The position numbers were made by a program, and so were the translations under genes. The notes under the pieces were generated by a model that saw nothing but the letters and a program-made list of their open reading frames with translations, searched no databases and was not told where the DNA came from. A stretch of 64,000 nucleotides of DNA from Candidatus Micrarchaeota archaeon (GTDB lineage: Archaea > Micrarchaeota > Micrarchaeia > Anstonellales > Bilamarchaeaceae), in the NCBI GenBank assembly GCA_038046805.1, contig JBBSVO010000006.1, positions 103,314-167,313 of the forward strand. Reading direction: 5' to 3'. Shown in pieces: positions 12,809 through 64,000 of the stretch (its first letter is position 1; each line of letters begins with the position of its first letter).

Positions 12809-13240
12809 TTATCTCAGAGCTGCTTGCTCTTCTATCAGGTCAATAACTGCTGGGAATATTCTCATAATATCCCCTTCACTCAGTACACCTATAAGCTCAT
12901 TTTTTTCATTAACTACTGGCAGTCTTTTTATCTTATTCTTTTTCATTGCCTTTGCCGCTTCTTCAAGGTTCGTTTCAGGACGAATTACTCTCAGCGGCTT
13001 TGACATTGCTTGATCTGCAGTAGCCTTATAAGGATCCTTTCCCTGCGCGATGATTTTTCCAACGATGTCTCTTTCAGTGATTATTCCAACGGCGTGTTTT
13101 CCCTCTTTATCAGTGGTTACGATTATGGAACCAATGCCGTGTTTTTTCATGAGTGTTGCTACTTCGCCAATCTTTTCGCTGGCAGGGGCTGATATGACCC
13201 TTTTAGTCATTATGTCTCCTACTGTTAGGTCTGAACCCAT
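12809..13240 (-). CDS. CBS-domain pair protein
   Basis: 143 aa. Two CBS-like units (VGDIMTKRVISA... and AMSKPLRVIRPETNLEEAAKAMKKNKIKRLPVV). Confidence 0.8.
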   Translation of the reverse strand: MGSDLTVGDIMTKRVISAPASEKIGEVATLMKKHGIGSIIVTTDKEGKHAVGIITERDIVGKIIAQGKDPYKATADQAMSKPLRVIRPETNLEEAAKAMKKNKIKRLPVVNEKNELIGVLSEGDIMRIFPAVIDLIEEQAALR

Positions 13241-13298
13241 AGTTAATTTTAGGTAGGATAAGGTATTTAAAGGCGAGTTTGCGCCGAGAACAACACGT

Positions 13299-14393
13299 TC
13301 ATTTCTTTTTTATTCGGAATATTCTCACATTTCCACGCTTTTCTTCCGCTCTCCTGCTTTCAAGGATACAACCAGATTCCATTTTTTCAAGATGTCTTCT
13401 TCCGGTTCTTTCCGCGATACCAAGTTTCTTGTAAATGTCCGTGCTTTCCAATTCTCCATCCCCCAGTAGCTCTAAAATTCGTTTTTCCAATTCGTTTATG
13501 CCGGTTTTATTATTTTCATTAACTGCTCCAATAACCGTGGTAATATGCTGTTTTGCAGCTTCCACGTCATCAGGGGTTATTTTTCCCCCATTTCTTGCTT
13601 CTGTTTCCCTTCCACTAAGCCACAACAATGTTATCCCTATTCTTGCATCTCCGCCATTCTTTGCGGCAAATGCGGCGCATTTTCCAATTACCTCTTCGTC
13701 ATACGTGTCATTGTAAATCCCCAAGGTTGCCCTTTCCGTAAGTATGCCCTTCATTTCTTCGGGAGAATACTGGTTAAATTTGATCGACATCTGTGCCATT
13801 GAGCTCCTTATTCTCTTGTCAAGCGCTATTACGAACTCGGGATTATTTGTTATTGCAATTACGGAAATTTCTATCCCTATGGTTTCTGAAGCACGCAGCA
13901 AATCGTAAAACACCTCGTGTTCATTCTTTTGCATGAGTGCATCTGCTTCGTCTAATACTACAATTGCAGTTTTTTTTGAATTTTTGAGATATGTTCCGAT
14001 TTTGTCAAGAATCCGGTCCACGGTCATGCCACTTTGCGGGGCAAGCGGATCAATTCTCTCCAGGATTCTTGTTAGTATAGAATGCCTTGTTCCGTTTTGC
14101 CAGCAGTTTATATATATTATAATCGCGCGTTGGGTATATTCCTGCAATTGCTTCAATACGTATTTTGTGCAGCAAGTCTTTCCAGTTCCTGGTGGTCCGC
14201 TCAAGATCATGCTTGGAATGCGTGCCTTTCGTTCCACTGCCTTGAATGCCAGGGCCATTTCGTGGATTTCTTTTTCCCTTCCAATAATCTCTTCTGGCGA
14301 ATAGTCTGCATTGAAGACGCGTTCGTCTCTGAAAATAAGATTTTCTGACTTAGAATCCCGGAAAATGTTCACAAAGTATATTCGAAAAATCAA
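13299..14393 (-). CDS. cdc6: Orc1/Cdc6 replication initiator
   Basis: 364 aa. Walker A GPPGTGKT, Walker B VVLDEAD, AAA+ lid and C-terminal winged-helix segment. N-terminal LIFRDERVFNADYSPEEIIGREKEI is typical of the family. Confidence 0.9.
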   Translation of the reverse strand: MIFRIYFVNIFRDSKSENLIFRDERVFNADYSPEEIIGREKEIHEMALAFKAVERKARIPSMILSGPPGTGKTCCTKYVLKQLQEYTQRAIIIYINCWQNGTRHSILTRILERIDPLAPQSGMTVDRILDKIGTYLKNSKKTAIVVLDEADALMQKNEHEVFYDLLRASETIGIEISVIAITNNPEFVIALDKRIRSSMAQMSIKFNQYSPEEMKGILTERATLGIYNDTYDEEVIGKCAAFAAKNGGDARIGITLLWLSGRETEARNGGKITPDDVEAAKQHITTVIGAVNENNKTGINELEKRILELLGDGELESTDIYKKLGIAERTGRRHLEKMESGCILESRRAEEKRGNVRIFRIKKK

Positions 14394-14423
14394 TTTATTA
14401 ATATTGCGAGAGCAGATGTTTCA

Positions 14424-26725: not shown

Positions 26726-26842
26726 GGGCTCGTAGCTCAGAAGCAGAGCACTCGCCTTGCACGCGAGGGGCCGAGGGTGCGAGAGCTTTGAAATCACCGA
26801 TTTCAAAATTAGTCGGCAAAGCCGTCTATCCCTCCGAGTCCA
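26726..26842 (+). tRNA. tRNA-Ala (TGC) with a 45-nt T-loop intron
   Basis: GGGCTCG-TA-GCTC-AGAAGCA-GAGC-A-CTCGC-CTTGCAC-GCGAG-GGGCC-GAGGG-TGCGA[45 nt, 26783-26827]AT-CCCTC-CGAGTCC-A. G3:U70 alanine identity pair present. Anticodon at 26758-26760. Confidence 0.75.
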
Positions 26843-26948
26843 TTTTGAAGAAATGGACTGACTTGAACCGCAGTTCAAGCCGAAGTCCATTTTGAAGAAA
26901 TGGACTGACTTGAAAGATTCGTCTTTCAAGCTGAAGTCCAATTTTTTT
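26836..26948 (+). repeat. Tandem ~46-51 nt double-hairpin units that begin inside the tRNA-Ala 3' end
   Basis: GAGTCCATTTTGAAGAAATGGACTGACTTGAA occurs at 26836 and, as GAAGTCC..., at 26882. A third partial GAAGTCCA lies at 26933. Each unit folds as AGTCCATTT/AAATGGACT plus a CTTGAA.../...TTCAAG hairpin. Confidence 0.7.
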
Positions 26949-27301: not shown

Positions 27302-27518
27302 GGGCCCGTGGCGCAGCCTGGATAGCGTAGCAAGGCTTATTAAGTAAGTTTGTTAATAAGCTCTAGAAGCCTTCTAAGCTGACGGTCATGAGTTCAAGCA
27401 CAAGCCTTTTGGATTTCAGAAGCATTAAGACAAACGGCTAGTGTTTACCCAAAATCATGGAGAAGCATAATCAACGCGAAACTTGTGGTGTAAGAAAGAA
27501 CATATCTCATCGGGCCCG
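27302..27518 (+). tRNA. Putative tRNA-Arg (TCT), 217 nt, with two introns (anticodon stem about 36 nt, T-loop 106 nt)
   Basis: GGGCCCG-TG-GCGC-AGCCTGGATA-GCGT-A-GC[27332-27367]AGC-CTTCTAA-GCTGA-CGGTC-ATGAG-TTCAA[27398-27503]AT-CTCAT-CGGGCCC-G. Acceptor, D-arm and T-stem are perfect. Removing both inserts gives 75 nt. The anticodon-arm assignment is the weakest part. Confidence 0.55.
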
Positions 27519-60034: not shown

Positions 60035-61143
60035 TGGCTGAGAGCAAAGGAAATGCCAAAATGCCAATTTTGCTTTACCGTGGGGAGCATTTTGATTCAA
60101 ATTTTTTCTATTCTTCCGGAGTTGATCTAGACCACTCATTTTTTCTTTCAAATCCCCGGGTTCTTTTTGTTCCGAAGCTTAATTTCACGCTTGCCAGAAG
60201 ATTGTTTTCCGGACGGGTTATCGCTTATTCGAATGTTTCCGAGGTTTTAGGAAAGTTTATACGGAAAAAACAAATCAGAATGCTCGGAACAGACTTCCGT
60301 TCTCTTCCGGTTTCGGCTTATAAAAAACTGTCAAAACTAGCGCGTTTGAAGGACTATTCCGAGCAGTTTTTGCTCGTTCGCGCTAAAAAGCGGAAAAACG
60401 AAATATCAAAAATACGAAAAGCAGTTCAATTTTCAAAAAAGATTTTCTCAGAATTGGAATCTCGGATCCATCATATGAAGACCGAAAGCGACGTGCGCAG
60501 CTTTCTTCTCACCCGCACGCTTGAACTGGGTTTAGAACCTGCATTTGAACCCATTACTGCAAGCGGCTCAAATTCGAGATTCCCACATTACCAGTCCGGG
60601 AATAATGCGAAGTTGCACGATATGGTTTTGGTGGATTATGGCGTGCGATACGAACATTATTGCAGCGATTTAACCAGGTGTTTTTTCCTTAAGCACGGTA
60701 CAAAAGCAGAGAAAACCTATTTGGTTATGCAGGAAATGTTCGCGGATATTATAGATAATTTCCCAGATTTCGTCTCAGGAAAAGATCTCGCGGTTTTCAC
60801 TGAAAAATTATACGCGAAGCATAGTCTTCCACTCCCGCCGCATTCAATAGGTCATGGGATCGGACTTGATGTTCATGAATACCCCCGACTAAGCAAAAGA
60901 TACAAAGATCTGCTCGTTGGAACAACGATGGCGATTGAACCGTCTGCTTATTTCAATTCATTTGAAAAACGCAGCTTGCGGAAACCCTGCACTTCAGTGC
61001 TGGGAGGAGCGTTTTTCAAAAGCTTTGCTCTTCGGCCCTTGAAACCGCTGCCTTTAGGTTGCGGTGGCCGAATGAGCAAATCATTCGGGGTCAGGTTTGA
61101 GGAAACAATTGAATTCAACGGAAAAAAGGCGAAGGTTTTATAA
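60034..61143 (+). CDS. M24-family Xaa-Pro aminopeptidase/prolidase-like, carrying a 41-codon insertion
   Basis: 369 aa. Metal-ligand region HSIGHGIGLDVHEYP, then MAIEPSAYFNS[41 aa]FGVRFEETIEF. Without the insert the EP...GVR.E spacing is canonical. Confidence 0.8.
   Translation: MAESKGNAKMPILLYRGEHFDSNFFYSSGVDLDHSFFLSNPRVLFVPKLNFTLARRLFSGRVIAYSNVSEVLGKFIRKKQIRMLGTDFRSLPVSAYKKLSKLARLKDYSEQFLLVRAKKRKNEISKIRKAVQFSKKIFSELESRIHHMKTESDVRSFLLTRTLELGLEPAFEPITASGSNSRFPHYQSGNNAKLHDMVLVDYGVRYEHYCSDLTRCFFLKHGTKAEKTYLVMQEMFADIIDNFPDFVSGKDLAVFTEKLYAKHSLPLPPHSIGHGIGLDVHEYPRLSKRYKDLLVGTTMAIEPSAYFNSFEKRSLRKPCTSVLGGAFFKSFALRPLKPLPLGCGGRMSKSFGVRFEETIEFNGKKAKVL
60958..61080 (+). other. In-frame 123-nt double-hairpin insertion (MITE-like element or BHB-type intron candidate)
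   Basis: Flanked by direct TCATT (60958-60962 and 61081-85). Hairpin 1 is TTTGAAAAACGC (60961-72) / GCGTTTTTCAAA (61009-20), perfect 12 bp. Hairpin 2 is TTTGCTCTTCGGCC (61024-37) / GGCCGAATGAGCAAA (61066-80). Confidence 0.6.
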
Positions 61144-61175: not shown

Positions 61176-61226
61176 GCAGGGATAGCAATCCGCTTGAACT
61201 GATGTTCAAATCTTGTCATCCCTGCT
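61176..61226 (+). pseudogene. tRNA-Leu fragment (5' 13 nt plus 3' ~22 nt of the adjacent gene)
   Basis: GCAGGGATAGCAA...GTTCAAATCTTG-TCA-TCCCTGC matches both ends of the intact tRNA-Leu 39 nt downstream. D-arm, anticodon arm and variable arm are missing. Confidence 0.7.
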
Positions 61227-61264
61227 TTAGGTATTTATTCGTACCTATCCTAAATTCATACTAC

Positions 61265-61388
61265 TGCAGGGATAGCAAAGCCTGGTCAAATGCGCAGGAC
61301 TTAAGGAGCCTTTTGACTTCTAAGTAGGTCTGTGGTTTCGGAAATCCTGTCGCTTAGTGCGTTCGCAAGTTCAAATCTTGCTCCCTGC
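61265..61388 (+). tRNA. tRNA-Leu (TAA) with canonical 37/38 intron (38 nt)
   Basis: GCAGGGA-TA-GCA...TGC-G-CAGGA-CTTAAG[61305-61342]A-TCCTG, variable arm, then GCAAG-TTCAAAT-CTTGC-TCCCTGC-A. Anticodon at 61301-61303. Mature length 86 nt. Confidence 0.85.
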
Positions 61389-61580
61389 ATTTTGTTTTCA
61401 TCTGAGTTCTTCGGGTTTTTCGTGAGGAAATACCTCATGAACTACCTTCCGTCAGTGAAGGTTCTGACGTAAGATCTATTTAAGCCCTGGCCTGAGGCGA
61501 GTTAGACGATTGCCTAATTAATAGTAGTCCAACGAGTCATGGTGCTTATTTTTAAATCCTTTGAACACTAATATACTTCA

Positions 61581-63187
61581 ATGCACACAACTATGTCTAG
61601 ATCAAGAGAACATAGAGCCGACCATGCAGGTAACACCAGCCATAAACAATTTGTCAGACCAAATCCAATGTTGTCGTTTTATCAAGACCCAGAAAATCCA
61701 AACTGGACTTATTTTGGAACAGGTTCTGCAGGTGCAAAAGCAGACTGGCTTTATGATAAAAGTCCGATTATAAGAGCTAATGGTTTTATCGAAGATCCAA
61801 GAACTGTTCTTAGAATGGGTTTGTTCGAAGATCATAGAAACAGAAATGGTTTAGACCGAGCGATTAGAAACCCAGAGATCTTAGGGCACTTAGGAATCTT
61901 ACACTCAACAGTCCTTTTAACAAAAGGGAAGTTGAAGTTCTAGAGTATATCCTAGATCGTATTCCAGAAAAAACCCCCATGGTCGTGCGTTCATCGGCCC
62001 ATGGAGACGCTGCGGGAACTGGATTTTACGATAGTGTTTTTTATATGAAAACTGGAAATAAAAAAACAGACTTAGCAAATCTCGAACTAGCAATAAAAAC
62101 CGTTCTTGCAAGTGAATTTTCACAAAGAGCTTATGCTTTTAGACAAAAAAGAGAGTTAGATCATGGCGTTGCAGTCATGATCGAACCCGCTTTTGTACGA
62201 GATGTGACCCAAGAAGTTGTTGAAACAAATCACCTACGTGAATTGGATAAGGGTACGTACCTTTCACCTGATATTTCTGGTTTTGCATATACAAGTACAG
62301 AAACTGGCCGGGGGTTTGCCGGGGTTGTACTTGGTTTGCCAACTTCTGCAGTAGCGGGCAAGGGCGCAGTAATAACTATCAGACATTCTGATAACGACAG
62401 CTTATTTGGTCGTGTACCTTGGGATACGCTACCACGATTTCAAGATTTAGTAGATCAGGCAGTCGTCTTTGATACTAGAAATGGCCAGTTAAGCGCTGCT
62501 GGGTTTTATACAGAAACAGCGCATTATGAGTTAGACAAATTATTTGGACCATTACTTGGTCTAGAACGAGATATTGGAGAACCGATTTATGCTGAATGGG
62601 CTTTGAGACGAATAAAGGGGCAGGTAGAACGAGCGATTTTGCAAATTTCGGGAGTTTCTAGATCTGATTATTCTGTAGTTTTTCCAGCAGATCCCAAAAA
62701 TATTTTTGCAAGTGCAGAATTTGTTCTGAGAAGCGGATGTGAAGATTGTCAGGGTATATTCTTCTTACCTGATACTGTTTCGGCCAGACAACTTGCAGAA
62801 TTTAATAAAACCCACAAAGGATATGTACTAGTGGCAGATTACAAATTCTTTTCAGATGTACGTGGTCAGCATGATTATCTTGCACCAAGAGTTAATGTTT
62901 TGAGGGATTTCCATTTAGACTATGGCCAATTTGATAATACATCTGCAATTCTTGTATGCGGTCCACCTGAAGCAAAAAATTCCGTAAAGGGACACTTCGA
63001 AGGTGCCTTAAAAGAAGCACAAGTTGTTGGCGGATTTAATATCGGTATGGTTGACTACGTACGTGAACGTCTTGCTTCATTGATGGGTTTGGAAAGAGAA
63101 GGACTTGACGGTAAGAATTTTGTTAATGGAAATATTCGGGCAATTGCAAGTGCGAAAGAACAGAAAATGTTACTTATTTTAGGTTAA
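61581..63187 (+). pseudogene. PEP/pyruvate-binding (PPDK_N, ATP-grasp type) domain protein, frame broken once near 61868-61880
   Basis: The downstream ORF has the VVRSSAHGDAAGTGFYDS motif. Its frame is open back to 61868 and reads ...LEYILDRIPEKTPMVVRSSA. The upstream ORF (61581-61943) supplies the N-terminal part in another frame. Confidence 0.6.
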
Positions 63188-63465
63188 TTTAACCGTTAAA
63201 TTTGTTTATCATAAATCTTGCAAATTTTCAACTTTTTCTCATTCGATAAGCTTAGTTTTTGCTCGAACTTCTTCGAGAATATATAAAGGGATGGCGAGTT
63301 CCATACCCTTGAAGCGTATCTCTTGCGAGTTCAACATCTGAAAGGCTACATTTTTCTGTTTTTCAAGTATGACAATTCTCCATACTTCAAACGATCCGGG
63401 CGTTAATTCGCTTGAGTTCACTCAGAAACTCGTGCAGAAGTATATTGATACCAAAGCCGTAAAAG

Positions 63466-63850
63466 TTCGTGTACATGATTTCGTTAATTCTATTCGTGCA
63501 CACGGTTTTTTGACCCTTAAAACTTCGTGTGTTTCGCCTATTTTCAAGTTATAAACAAGCACACGAAAATCACACGAACTTAGGCGATCTGGAATCCACA
63601 ACACGCAAGAAACGGCGTTCTGGCGCATATATTGGTGTGTGTGAGTGCTGAGTGAAAGCATGAGCACACGATCAAACACACGACTTCAAATGAATTAAGG
63701 CGTAGAACACACGAAGTCGCTAGTTTTTCCGTTCCTTGATGGAGAGAGTGAGAAAGAAAGAGAGTTAACACCTATTCTTGCATTATAAGCAAACACACGA
63801 AAAACACTCGACTTCGCTCGGATTAAGCGTTAGAACATACGAAATCAAGC
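63466..63850. repeat. Iteron-like field of CACACGA heptamers
   Basis: Exact CACACGA at 63560, 63571, 63665, 63677, 63708 and 63794, with an inverted copy at 63525-63531, plus one-mismatch variants. Two ~45-60-nt longer units (63674-63720 and 63791-63850) are related. Confidence 0.75.
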
Positions 63851-64000
63851 GAATTGGCTACACTGAATAGATAGAGAGATAAAACTAGAAAAACGTTTTA
63901 TCCAATCCTTTCTCAACTATTTTCTTGAGAAGCAAATTCTTGACTTCTTCGTCTTCAATAAGGATATTCATTAGTTCATTTGGTTTCTTGTTCGGATCAA

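What the first reader, a model, noticed from the sequence alone, without database searches (positions are those of the whole stretch)
63466..63850. Dense field of CACACGA iterons in a non-coding stretch at the window end
Seven exact copies of the heptamer (six direct, one inverted) occur within 63525-63800, plus one-mismatch variants (CACACGG 63499, CACTCGA 63804, CATACGA 63836, TACACGA inverted about 63467). For a 7-mer on both strands of ~280 bp, only about 0.03 copies are expected by chance. Copies often carry the extended context AACACACGA(A/C)(G/T)T. Two longer units (63674-63720; 63791-63850) share ..ATTAAG(G)CGT(T)AGAACA(C/T)ACGAA.. as well. ORFs called here are short and low-complexity. 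Arrays like this are typical of replication-origin iterons, partition sites, or multi-site operators of plasmids and viruses. The field lies downstream of a tRNA gene with a duplicated fragment.
Basis: partly seen in the sequence, partly recalled or inferred. Interest (0 to 1): 0.62.

Follow-up and report, generated by a model that had tools for sequence, protein, structure and literature searches.

The report
Heptamer-studded control modules beside an archaeal integrase
The CACACGA cluster is real: it is three tandem copies of a conserved non-coding module (a promoter-like AT box surrounded by phased copies of a module-specific 7-11 bp site) inside a ~3.8 kb element integrated in a tRNA gene of a Micrarchaeota archaeon; its function and the factor that reads the sites are unknown.

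Summary
Observation confirmed: 7 of the window's 8 exact CACACGA copies lie in 63525-63800 (about 0.02-0.03 expected).

The field is 700 bp of non-coding DNA. It lies between a cargo gene and the 3' end of a Xer-like tyrosine integrase that runs off the window. Both sit inside a ~3.8 kb element bounded by direct repeats of a tRNA 3' end.

The heptamers belong to three ~110-160 nt modules (A, B, C). The full module plan is: inverted site, TTATAAA box, two sites 11-12 bp apart, a third site about 31 bp on, then a C-poor purine tract.

I found 21 homologous modules in 13 Micrarchaeota loci. Each uses its own heptamer (CACACGA, CACACTG, CACAATG or CACATTG), nearly uniform within a module (0 of 5000 shuffles as uniform).

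The integrase does not read these variable positions. Integrases 92-94% identical carry different heptamers, and no integrase residue tracks the allele.

No Rep, Par or regulator gene is present. There is no Rfam match, no conserved ORF, and the RNA data are uninformative.

Best reading (about 0.35): promoter-operator modules giving short non-coding transcripts, with the heptamers bound by a trans-acting factor. Rivals: a Rep-less replication origin, accessory recombination sites, and RNA or single-strand pairing elements.

The parts
61266..61389 (+). Intron-containing tRNA (probably Leu, anticodon UAA, long variable arm). Its last 11 nt (61379-61389, TGCTCCCTGCA) are the attL core of the integrated element.
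   Evidence: Rfam tRNA 45.9 bits. Direct repeats of the 3' end lie at L001 13217-13236 and 13297-13316, beyond the window (families D4/D5). The anticodon assignment is my reading of the alignment.
61390..61516 (.). P' arm of the element's attachment site: about 130 nt directly after the tRNA. It is conserved in other elements of the family and contains the inverted-repeat arm CTGAGTTCT.
   Evidence: 75-80% identity to L004 and L019 although the cargo differs. AGAACTCAG occurs only at L001 9424(-), 13192(+) and 13240(-). L004 has the same att layout.
61581..63187 (+). Cargo: two ORFs (120 aa and 402 aa) that together resemble one PPDK_N (PEP-utilising, ATP-grasp) domain protein split by a frameshift.
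   Evidence: Pfam PPDK_N E=9.6e-7 on ORF402, starting at profile position 104. The open frames overlap at 61868-61940. This segment is replaced by unrelated cargo in L004 and L013.
63268..63432 (.). Block X: a conserved, quasi-palindromic non-coding block that starts with TATATAAAGGGATGGCGA and ends with AATTCGCTTGAGTTCACTCAGAAA.
   Evidence: 79% identical over 160 nt in L013, where it is inverted and lies between the modules and the integrase. Also present in L004. It matches itself on both strands. No conserved ORF.
63463..63660 (+). Module A (type I). Sites: inverted 63467-63473; direct 63499-63505 (CACACGG); inverted 63525-63531; AT box TTATAAA 63549-63555; 63560-63566 and 63571-63577 (11 bp apart); degenerate third site CACGCAA 63602-63608; inverted TGGTGTG 63633-63639 at the start of a G/T-rich, C-poor tract.
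   Evidence: Sequence. nhmmer match to the module profile, E=5e-17. Alignment with relatives. Closest relative is the L071 module, which has the same heptamer.
63661..63768 (+). Module B (type II-like, no AT box). Sites at 63665-63671 and 63677-63683 (12 bp apart) and 63708-63714 (31 bp on). Then TTTTTCC and the purine tract GATGGAGAGAGTGAGAAAGAAAGAGAG (63738-63765).
   Evidence: (E=2e-8). The purine tract aligns with the near-invariant CCCTGAGATGAGAGAGCGAGAG of type II modules in L012, L013, L054, L064, L073 and L146.
63769..63884 (+). Module C (type I). AT box ATTATAAG 63782-63789. Sites at 63794-63800, 63805-63811 (CACTCGA) and 63836-63842 (CATACGA). Purine tract AATAGATAGAGAGATAAAA. It ends at the integrase stop codon.
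   Evidence: E=2e-14; repeat families D2, D3.
63885..64000 (-). 3' end of a 402-aa Xer-like tyrosine integrase with a C-terminal zinc ribbon. The gene continues to about 65093 in window numbering, outside the window.
   Evidence: Contig context. Pfam Phage_integrase E=8.5e-21 plus weak zinc-ribbon hits. NCBIfam XerA-type 107 bits, below its cut-off. About 135 relatives, nearly all Micrarchaeota.
63405..63855 (.). 15-nt inverted repeat AATTCGCTTGAGTTC / GAAATCAAGCGAATT (93% complementary) bracketing the heptamer field.
   Evidence: I11; I2. Significance unknown. No inverted form was seen in DNA contigs.

Best explanation
The field is the non-coding control region of a small 'cryptic' integrative element, about 3.8 kb, consisting of integrase plus cargo, inserted in a tRNA gene of a Micrarchaeota archaeon.

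It is built from three tandem copies of a conserved module. Each module is best read as an archaeal promoter-operator unit:
- an 8-10 bp TATA-like box that matches the organism's own promoter consensus;
- a module-specific 7-11 bp site upstream in inverted orientation;
- two direct copies one helical turn apart filling the TATA-to-start interval;
- a further copy about three turns downstream;
- a conserved C-poor purine tract that would lie in a short non-coding transcript.

A sequence-specific DNA-binding factor supplied in trans would occupy the sites cooperatively and gate firing of the module promoters. This factor is not encoded in the array, and it is not the integrase as far as the variable positions are concerned. 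In this locus the promoters point at the 3' end of the integrase gene.

Shown: the anatomy, the element context, conservation of the module plan, concerted variation of the heptamers, and their independence from the integrase sequence.

Inferred: promoter activity, the existence of the transcripts, and the existence and identity of the binding factor.
For: Clustering.

Element context and att sites, which place the field inside the element at 1.3 kb and 2.1 kb from the cores.

Conservation: 21 homologous modules in 13 loci, with the AT box, site positions and purine tract conserved.

Site spacing of 11-12 bp and about 31-34 bp, which puts the copies on roughly one face of the helix.

The AT box resembles the local promoter motif TTTWAAA, which is enriched 30-46 nt upstream of start codons in this window.

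Heptamers are far more uniform within a module than between modules: mean Hamming distance 0.59 against 1.43 +/- 0.07, with 0 of 5000 shuffles as low. This points to a common reader.

Sites occur in both orientations at conserved positions, and one lies upstream of the AT box. That fits recognition of double-stranded DNA.

No conserved ORF.

Precedent: the SSV1 repressor F55 binds tandem repeats overlapping the BRE and transcription start of several viral promoters (PMC5569661). Integrase-only cryptic elements as small as 2.6 kb are known in archaea (PMC6563490).
Against: No regulator gene is present in the element, and no candidate reader was identified.

No gene lies downstream of the module promoters.

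Module orientation relative to the integrase is not fixed. It is inverted in L064, and in L016 the modules lie 3-5 kb away. Antisense control of the integrase therefore cannot be the general function.

Module B has no AT box.

There is no clear BRE and no consistent T-stretch terminator.

Adjacent modules in one locus can carry different but internally uniform heptamers, for example L064 with CACATTG and CACAATG. A single tolerant protein does not explain this.

Transcription is unproven. The one RNA run covers 63416-63690 at depth 2, but it covers 20-28% of the whole genome in the same patchy way.
Confidence: 0.35

Rival explanations
1. Replication origin of the excised element. In one version the heptamers are iterons for an initiator supplied by the host or by another element, and the AT box flanked by inverted sites is the unwinding element. 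In a Rep-independent version, transcription from the AT-box promoter forms an R-loop at the C-poor purine tract that primes DNA synthesis, as in ColE1 or mitochondrial DNA.
For: Phased direct repeats plus inverted sites flanking an AT box.

The module behaves as an autonomous cassette. It is orientation-independent, varies from 1 to 3 copies, and is exchanged between integrase backbones.

Module-specific site alleles resemble incompatibility variants of iteron replicons.

A conserved G-rich, C-poor tract lies about 60-80 nt downstream of the AT box. GC skew is +0.32 there against -0.06 in the rest of the module.

The element has no other obvious means of propagation.
Against: No Rep, primase, helicase or Orc gene in the element.

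The host Orc1/Cdc6 gene at 13302-14420 has no such heptamers nearby.

The AT box is only 8-10 bp and is conserved in sequence, which is unlike a DNA-unwinding element.

Element depth does not exceed flank depth in DNA assemblies: 11.5 against 10-12.5 in one run, and 13-15 against 19-21 in another.

No junction of a circular form, no circular short contigs and no viral relatives.

Modules are absent from many close integrase relatives.
Confidence: 0.2
2. Accessory or secondary recombination sites for the adjacent integrase. These could be arm-type sites, a multimer-resolution site with accessory sequences (like cer or psi), or sites at which cargo is exchanged.
For: The array sits directly 3' of the integrase gene. 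That is where lambda keeps its P' arm sites (established knowledge).

More distant integrase lineages carry their own different short-repeat arrays in the same position: GGTCAAA in L010, L015 and L064; CTGCGCA in L024, L029 and L091; AGCTGCG in L037 and L038.

Type I modules contain a GTTCTG-N3-5-CAGAAC palindrome, and CAGAAC also occurs in the att arms.

Module number and arrangement vary between relatives, and cargo is swapped exactly between the P' arm and block X.
Against: The field is 1.3 kb and 2.1 kb from the att cores, not within about 150 bp.

The att arms contain no CACACGA.

Integrases 94% identical (L001, L004) and 92% identical (L071, L005) carry different heptamers, while L001 and L071 (79% identical) share CACACGA. 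Zero integrase positions fit the allele split.

The integrase has no recognisable N-terminal arm-binding domain.

The closest relatives L006, L007, L008 and L072 lack the modules.

CAGAAC is a common hexamer, with 45 copies in the window, and the palindrome is degenerate in the window's own modules.

No deletion or inversion joints were seen.
Confidence: 0.12
3. Nucleic-acid pairing elements. The modules encode RNAs, or form single-stranded DNA hairpins, in which inverted and direct heptamers base-pair. Pairs would be h0 with the inverted site, and h3 with the downstream inverted site. The sites must then match each other rather than a protein.
For: Uniform heptamers within a module, with different alleles in adjacent modules of one locus, are most simply explained by a need for complementarity.

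Specific inverted/direct pairs match beyond the heptamer: 12 nt for 63522-63533 with 63706-63717, 11 nt for 63524-63534 with 63791-63801, and 10 nt for 63463-63472 with 63572-63581.

A near-invariant 22-nt block in type II modules suggests a functional transcript.

Modules are self-contained and exchangeable.

The minus strand folds somewhat better than shuffles (z = -2.47).
Against: No Rfam match, even at E up to 10.

The plus-strand fold is not significant (z = -1.54).

The apical part of the h0/inverted-site hairpin is not maintained across relatives.

Most copies are direct repeats that cannot pair with one another.

One partner of each proposed pair lies upstream of the AT box.

There is no directional RNA evidence.
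Confidence: 0.15
4. Partition (centromere-like) site of a plasmid form, comparable to parC of plasmid R1, where iterons flank a promoter.
For: Direct repeats about 11 bp apart arranged around a promoter-like box. The parC comparison is from established knowledge.
Against: No ParA/ParM/ParB/ParR-type gene in the element or in relatives' elements. No evidence of an extrachromosomal form.
Confidence: 0.04
5. Compositional artefact, chance clustering or unrecognised coding sequence.
For: None beyond the short ORFs that overlap the field.
Against: About 0.02 copies expected against 7 observed. The module plan is conserved in 13 loci from different samples. ORFs are not conserved, and indels are not multiples of three. 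The field is 100% identical in independent assemblies.
Confidence: 0.01

Closest known systems
Operator arrays of archaeal temperate elements, e.g. SSV1 F55 (ribbon-helix-helix) binding tandem repeats at the T5, T6, Tind and Tlys promoters (PMC5569661)
   Same: Short tandem repeats placed over or next to the TATA/BRE/start region of several promoters of an integrative element. Several sites of graded quality are present.
   Different: No repressor gene lies in or next to the array. Sites also occur 30 bp downstream and in inverted orientation upstream. No protein-coding gene follows the promoters. The site sequence switches between modules.
Iteron-type replication origins of plasmids, and archaeal ORB/DUE origins
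   Same: Phased repeats, inverted sites flanking an AT-rich box, modular and exchangeable, with allele-like site variants.
   Different: No cognate initiator gene. The AT box is only 8-10 bp. There is no sign of extra copy number. The host Orc1/Cdc6 locus carries no such sites.
Arm-type sites of lambda-family attP, and accessory sequences of Xer sites (cer, psi)
   Same: Repeat array directly 3' of a tyrosine recombinase gene. The cer site even contains a promoter for a small RNA (established knowledge).
   Different: More than 1 kb from the att core. The integrase sequence does not co-vary with the sites. No arm-binding domain is recognisable. Modules are missing in close relatives.
Cryptic integrated elements of archaea (PMC6563490)
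   Same: A small tRNA-targeting element with an integrase as the only conserved gene plus variable cargo. No identifiable replication protein.
   Different: That class is defined by gene content. No conserved non-coding module of this kind has been described for it, as far as my searches went.

Membership tests
Iteron or ORB-type replication origin | Three or more repeated initiator-binding sites with regular spacing | tested here: met
   Ten sites; spacings of 11-12 bp and 31 bp recur in all three modules.
Iteron or ORB-type replication origin | Cognate initiator gene (Rep, Orc1/Cdc6) adjacent or on the same element | tested here: not met
   The element encodes only the integrase and a split PPDK_N-like protein. 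The host Orc1/Cdc6 gene is at 13302-14420 with no heptamers nearby.
Iteron or ORB-type replication origin | Extended AT-rich unwinding element | tested here: inconclusive
   Only an 8-10 bp conserved TTATAAA-type box is present. The 2 kb bin holding the field has 39% GC, against 39-47% across the other bins.
Iteron or ORB-type replication origin | Origin activity (copy-number excess, circular form) | tested here: not met
   Element contig depth does not exceed flank depth. No circular joints were found, although only assembler contigs were available. No circular short contigs.
Lambda-type arm sites in attP | Sites lie within about 150-250 bp of the crossover core | tested here: not met
   The att cores are at window 61379-61389 and at L001 13297-13307. 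The field is 2.1 kb and 1.3 kb away.
Lambda-type arm sites in attP | Site sequence co-varies with the integrase that reads it | tested here: not met
   L001/L004 are 94% identical and L071/L005 are 92% identical, yet the heptamer alleles pair L001 with L071. No integrase position fits that split.
Lambda-type arm sites in attP | Integrase has a separate arm-binding domain | tested here: inconclusive
   The domain order is core-binding, catalytic, then a C-terminal zinc ribbon and helix. No N-terminal extra domain is seen. DNA binding by the zinc ribbon was not tested.
Archaeal promoter-operator unit | TATA box matching the organism's promoters | tested here: met
   TTATAAA / ATTATAAG in modules A and C; TTTATAAAG or TTTTTAAAG in relatives. 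The local consensus TTTWAAA is enriched 30-46 nt upstream of start codons. Module B lacks a box.
Archaeal promoter-operator unit | Repeated sites overlapping the TATA-to-start interval | tested here: met
   The two direct sites begin 4-5 nt after the box and span about 18 nt.
Archaeal promoter-operator unit | Transcript starting about 25 nt downstream of the box | tested here: inconclusive
   One RNA-run contig covers 63416-63690 at depth 2. It is not directional, and the background is equally patchy.
Archaeal promoter-operator unit | Cognate DNA-binding regulator | tested here: not met
   No HTH, RHH or wHTH gene lies inside the element. The neighbouring wHTH-nucleotidyltransferase lies outside attR and has no heptamers at its own promoter.
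Partition site (parS/parC) | Adjacent partition ATPase and adaptor genes | tested here: not met
   None in L001 or in clustered neighbours of about 140 related loci.
Known structured RNA family | Match to a curated covariance model | tested here: not met
   No Rfam hit at E up to 10 on either strand.
Cryptic integrated element (tRNA-targeting, tyrosine integrase) | Integrase plus flanking direct repeats, one of them the 3' end of a tRNA gene | tested here: met
   The same layout with different cargo is seen in L004.

The most novel reading that the evidence does not exclude
The modules are self-contained, 'addressable' non-coding devices in which the heptamer is a programmable code read by nucleic-acid pairing rather than by a protein.

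One example would be a Rep-independent, transcription-primed (R-loop) origin or switch. In it, the module promoter makes a C-poor RNA that acts back on the matching heptamers of its own module. This would explain three things:
- the elements need no initiator or regulator gene;
- the modules swap freely between integrase backbones;
- adjacent modules keep distinct but internally uniform heptamers.
Probability: 0.1. Interest if true: 0.85.

Novelty: new variant of a known kind. Interest (0 to 1): 0.5.

Why it matters
Almost nothing is known about how the small integrase-only elements of DPANN archaea are controlled, maintained or spread.

This work defines a conserved non-coding module family and gives exact attachment sites for the element. 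The module is constrained at least as tightly as the integrase gene itself.

It also poses a clear puzzle. Five to seven copies of a site change in concert per module, yet they do not follow the only conserved protein.

If it is RNA, this would be a new kind of self-addressed control element.

Tried and rejected
- **Exact heptamer in relatives:** absent. This at first looked like non-conservation, until module-level homology was found.
- **Integrase as reader:** rejected by the four-way comparison.
- **Arm-site reading:** rejected by mapping the att sites.
- **CAGAAC as an integrase-site link between att arms and modules:** too common a hexamer to carry weight.
- **Small conserved ORFs in block X or the modules:** none.
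- **Rfam, both thresholds:** nothing.
- **Single-sequence folding:** weak.
- **RNA evidence:** one metatranscriptome only, patchy everywhere, uninformative.
- **Viral collection:** no integrase relatives. One hit to a unit-like pattern was an unrelated tandem repeat in a bacterial contractile-tail locus.
- **Search for the invariant 20-mer in GTDB genomes:** among Micrarchaeota only integrase-linked loci, four of them already held and one new (L064); the seven bacterial hits I took as chance matches without checking them.
- **Circular short contigs:** none.
- **Conserved neighbour genes:** the only recurrent one is a PD-(D/E)xK-like 'gene Y' directly after the integrase in 18 loci. It is absent here and in several module-bearing loci.
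- **Neighbouring HEPN/nucleotidyltransferase pair as reader:** it lies outside attR and is found only in L001 and L071.
- **C/D-box sRNA, CRISPR and attC-like readings:** considered by eye and dropped for lack of the defining boxes or arrays.
- **Literature:** nothing on such modules.

Full report
**1.

CACACGA occurs eight times in the 64 kb window on both strands. Seven copies fall in 63525-63800. Shuffles give 4.7 copies per window, so about 0.02 are expected in that stretch. One-mismatch variants are not enriched window-wide (111 against 119 expected). The longer repeats are real: 63674-63718 against 63802-63846 at 76%, and 63537-63577 against 63771-63811 at 78%. The field is 100% identical in two independent assemblies from other samples.

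**2. Where it sits**

The window is part of a 197.6 kb groundwater contig (L001; window coordinate = L001 coordinate + 51978). The genes are archaeal: a beta-CASP nuclease, Orc1/Cdc6 at 13302-14420, and an intron-containing tRNA. All close relatives of the neighbouring integrase come from Micrarchaeota genomes.

The field is the 700 bp gap between a 402-aa PPDK_N-like ORF (61979-63187) and the 3' end of a 402-aa tyrosine integrase on the minus strand. The integrase starts at 63885 and runs off the window. It is Xer-like (NCBIfam XerA-type, 107 bits, below cut-off) and has a C-terminal zinc ribbon.

**3. It is inside a small integrated element**

The tRNA at 61266-61389 is found by Rfam at 45.9 bits but missed by ARAGORN. 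It ends in TGCTCCCTGCA. That 11-mer recurs at L001 13297-13307. A 38-nt stretch spanning the tRNA end and the sequence after it recurs at 13221-13258 at 82%.

A 9-10 bp inverted repeat, AGAACTCAG / CTGAGTTCT, lies about 37 nt before and 13 nt after the core. It occurs nowhere else in the 21 kb locus. L004, whose integrase is 94% identical, has the same plan: TCTCCCTGCA at both ends and the same inverted arms. Its cargo is entirely different: a reverse transcriptase, an RT-16 RNA and a 194-aa protein.

The element therefore runs from the tRNA 3' end to about 190 bp upstream of the integrase start, roughly 3.8 kb. The heptamer field is internal, 2.1 kb from attL and 1.3 kb from attR. A small attP-like remnant (L001 13190-13258) suggests a former tandem copy (inference).

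**4. Anatomy of the field**

Read together with relatives, the field consists of block X (63268-63432) followed by three modules.

The full module plan is:
- a direct site (h0);
- about 20 nt, then an inverted site;
- about 20 nt, then an AT box (TTTATAAAG in most relatives; TTATAAA and ATTATAAG here);
- 4-5 nt, then site h1;
- 4-5 nt, then site h2;
- 24-27 nt, then site h3;
- a conserved stretch (AAACAAGCGTTCTG in type I; GCATTTTTCC-TGCCCTGAG in type II);
- a C-poor purine or G/T tract (GAGATGAGAGAGCGAGAG);
- often another inverted site.

Here, module A (63463-63660) and module C (63769-63884) are type I. Module B (63661-63768) is type II-like and lacks the AT box. Start-to-start spacing is 11-12 bp for h1-h2 and 31 bp for h2-h3 in all three.

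The purine tract has GC skew +0.32, against -0.06 for the rest of the module.

The AT box matches the motif enriched 30-46 nt upstream of start codons in this window (TTTTAA, TTTAAA and ATTTAA, 8-9-fold).

**5. Relatives**

About 135 loci encode relatives of the integrase. Iterated nhmmer found 21 full modules in 13 distinct loci. None contains a conserved ORF across the modules.

The exact heptamer CACACGA is absent from nearly all of them. The plan is kept with other heptamers: CACACTG, CACAATG and CACATTG. Only L071 shares CACACGA.

Within a module the three or four aligned copies are almost uniform. Mean pairwise Hamming distance is 0.59. Reassigning heptamers between modules position by position gives 1.43 +/- 0.07, with 0 of 5000 shuffles as low. 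Adjacent modules in one locus can differ while each stays uniform: L064 has CACATTG x4 next to CACAATG x4, and L013 has CACACTG x4 next to CACAATG x3.

More distant integrase lineages carry unrelated short-repeat arrays in the same place. These are GGTCAAA in L010, L015 and L064; CTGCGCA in L024, L029 and L091; and AGCTGCG in L037 and L038. Several of these also lie next to TATA-like boxes.

**6. Who reads the heptamers? Not the integrase**

L001 and L004 integrases are 93.8% identical. L071 and L005 are 91.8% identical. The two pairs are about 78% identical to each other.

The heptamer alleles pair differently. L001 groups with L071 (both CACACGA), against L004 (CACAATG/CACACTG) and L005 (CACATTG). 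Not one integrase position has L001=L071 different from L004=L005, while 54 positions follow the integrase tree. The 28 differences between L001 and L004 are scattered and mostly conservative.

The whole non-coding region of L001 is also closer to that of L071 than to L004. Modules are therefore exchanged as cassettes between integrase backbones.

Other signs of autonomy:
- Modules are missing from the close relatives L006, L007, L008 and L072.
- They are inverted relative to the integrase in L064.
- In L016 they lie 3-5 kb from the integrase and flank an ATPase gene.

Together with the distance from the att cores, this argues strongly against arm-type sites.

**7. What is missing**

- No Rep, primase, helicase, Par or DNA-binding regulator gene is present in the element.
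- The only recurrent neighbour in the family is a PD-(D/E)xK-like protein directly after the integrase in 18 loci. It is absent here.
- No Rfam family matches at E up to 10.
- Single-sequence folding is weak: z = -1.5 for the plus strand and -2.5 for the minus strand.
- The only RNA run holding the locus has a 275-nt contig over 63416-63690 at depth 2. The same run covers about 20-28% of any part of this genome in similar patches and gives no direction. It says nothing either way.
- DNA assemblies show no excision, deletion or inversion joints. Element depth does not exceed flank depth: 11.5 against 10-12.5 in one run, and 13-15 against 19-21 in another. These are contigs, so rare forms would be lost.
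- No viral-collection relatives and no circular short contigs.

**8. Interpretation**

The anatomy is many copies of one short site, in both orientations, at fixed and helically phased positions around a conserved promoter-like box, with no coding capacity. This is what a multi-site operator or iteron array looks like.

I rank the promoter-operator reading first, at about 0.35. Three points favour it:
- The AT box is short, sequence-conserved and of the local promoter type.
- Two sites exactly fill the TATA-to-start interval.
- The conserved downstream blocks look like the body of a short transcript.

SSV1 F55 gives a precedent in archaeal integrative elements (PMC5569661). Archaeal cryptic elements with an integrase and no replication gene are documented down to 2.6 kb (PMC6563490).

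Its weaknesses are serious: no regulator, no downstream gene, variable orientation, and the unexplained uniformity of different alleles in adjacent modules.

The origin reading (about 0.2) explains module autonomy and the allele pattern better. It lacks an initiator and any sign of replication. A transcription-primed, Rep-independent variant using the purine tract is attractive but wholly speculative.

A pairing-based reading (about 0.15) explains allele uniformity best but has little structural support.

Accessory recombination sites (about 0.12) are disfavoured by sections 3 and 6.

A partition site (about 0.04) and an artefact (about 0.01) are unlikely.

**9. Novelty and value**

Repeat arrays on mobile elements are a known kind. 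As far as Rfam and the literature searches show, this module family is not described. That includes its concerted, integrase-independent site alleles, and its setting in Rep-less elements of DPANN archaea. I rate it a new variant of a known kind with moderate interest.

Noticed in passing
window 60956-61084; second copy at L001 13320-13495 (outside the window): A ~130-nt repeat with internal hairpins lies in frame inside the 3' part of the M24 peptidase gene. It adds about 43 residues between conserved motifs. It recurs in the intergenic DNA just beyond attR with a 45-nt internal insertion. Assembly graphs break there, and its k-mer depth is about twice that of the flanks. It looks like a MITE-like mobile repeat.
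   Followed up: partly
window 61177-61230: A degenerate mini-copy of the neighbouring tRNA: 5' acceptor/D part joined to the T-arm and 3' acceptor, with the middle missing. It lies 36 nt upstream of the real gene and may be a relic of earlier integration or excision events.
   Followed up: no
window 61572-63187: The element's cargo looks like one PPDK_N (ATP-grasp, PEP-utilising) domain protein split into 120-aa and 402-aa ORFs by a frameshift around 61868-61940. It may be a pseudogene or an assembly error.
   Followed up: partly
window 26838-26945: Two and a half direct copies of a ~55-nt unit (start-to-start spacing; core GAGTCCATTTTGAAGAAATGGACTGACTTGAA) containing the palindrome GTCCATTT...AAATGGAC. 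They lie in a 600 bp non-coding gap. The unit resembles archaeal origin-recognition boxes, though the Orc1/Cdc6 gene is 12 kb away.
   Followed up: no
window 27304-27420: The sequence begins like a tRNA (GGGCCCGTGGCGCAGCCTGGATAGCG...) and contains GTTCAAG further on. Neither ARAGORN nor Rfam calls it, even at E up to 1. It may be a tRNA with unusual introns.
   Followed up: partly
L004 7984-10056 and 8613-8798: The homologous element in L004 carries a reverse transcriptase (RVT_1, E=3e-18), an Rfam RT-16 RNA (79 bits) and a 194-aa protein as cargo. This looks like a diversity-generating retroelement riding on the integrase element.
   Followed up: partly
L004 10030-10420 (reverse strand): The target tRNA in L004 appears to have about 110 nt inserted within the T-loop in addition to the anticodon-loop intron. 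Rfam does not call it.
   Followed up: no
L010, L015, L064 (GGTCAAA/TTGACC); L024, L029, L091 (CTGCGCA/CTGCTCA); L037, L038 (AGCTGCG): within about 500 bp 3' of the integrase: Other lineages of the same integrase family carry unrelated short-repeat arrays in the equivalent position, often with TATA-like boxes. L064 has both CACAWTG modules and a GGTCAAA array.
   Followed up: partly
18 related loci, e.g. L007 7205-7999, L009 7212-7706, L022 2975-3802: A recurrent gene sits directly after the integrase. Its C-terminal domain has the motifs KEHAFFCYLI...GPDV...FDVETGK (PD-(D/E)xK nuclease-like), often with an N-terminal membrane or coiled-coil part. No Pfam hit for the L009 member, the only one scanned.
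   Followed up: partly
window 63868-63877; type I modules of L013 and L073: The tract ATAGATAGAG at the end of type I modules matches the first 10 of the 11 bases of the published consensus of the SSV1 F55 operator repeat (ATAGATAGAGT). This is probably coincidence, given the phylogenetic distance.
   Followed up: no
L001 13595-14718 (outside the window) and L071 2291-3432: A nucleotidyltransferase carrying an extra N-terminal ~100 residues (possibly a winged helix; inferred, not tested), paired with a HEPN protein (toxin-antitoxin-like), lies just outside attR. It is syntenic in L071, the only other locus with CACACGA modules.
   Followed up: partly
L001 8500-14000 in DNA run X3: Element contigs have lower k-mer depth (13-15) than both flanks (19-21) in one sample. 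This may mean part of the population lacks the element. No empty-site contig was seen.
   Followed up: no
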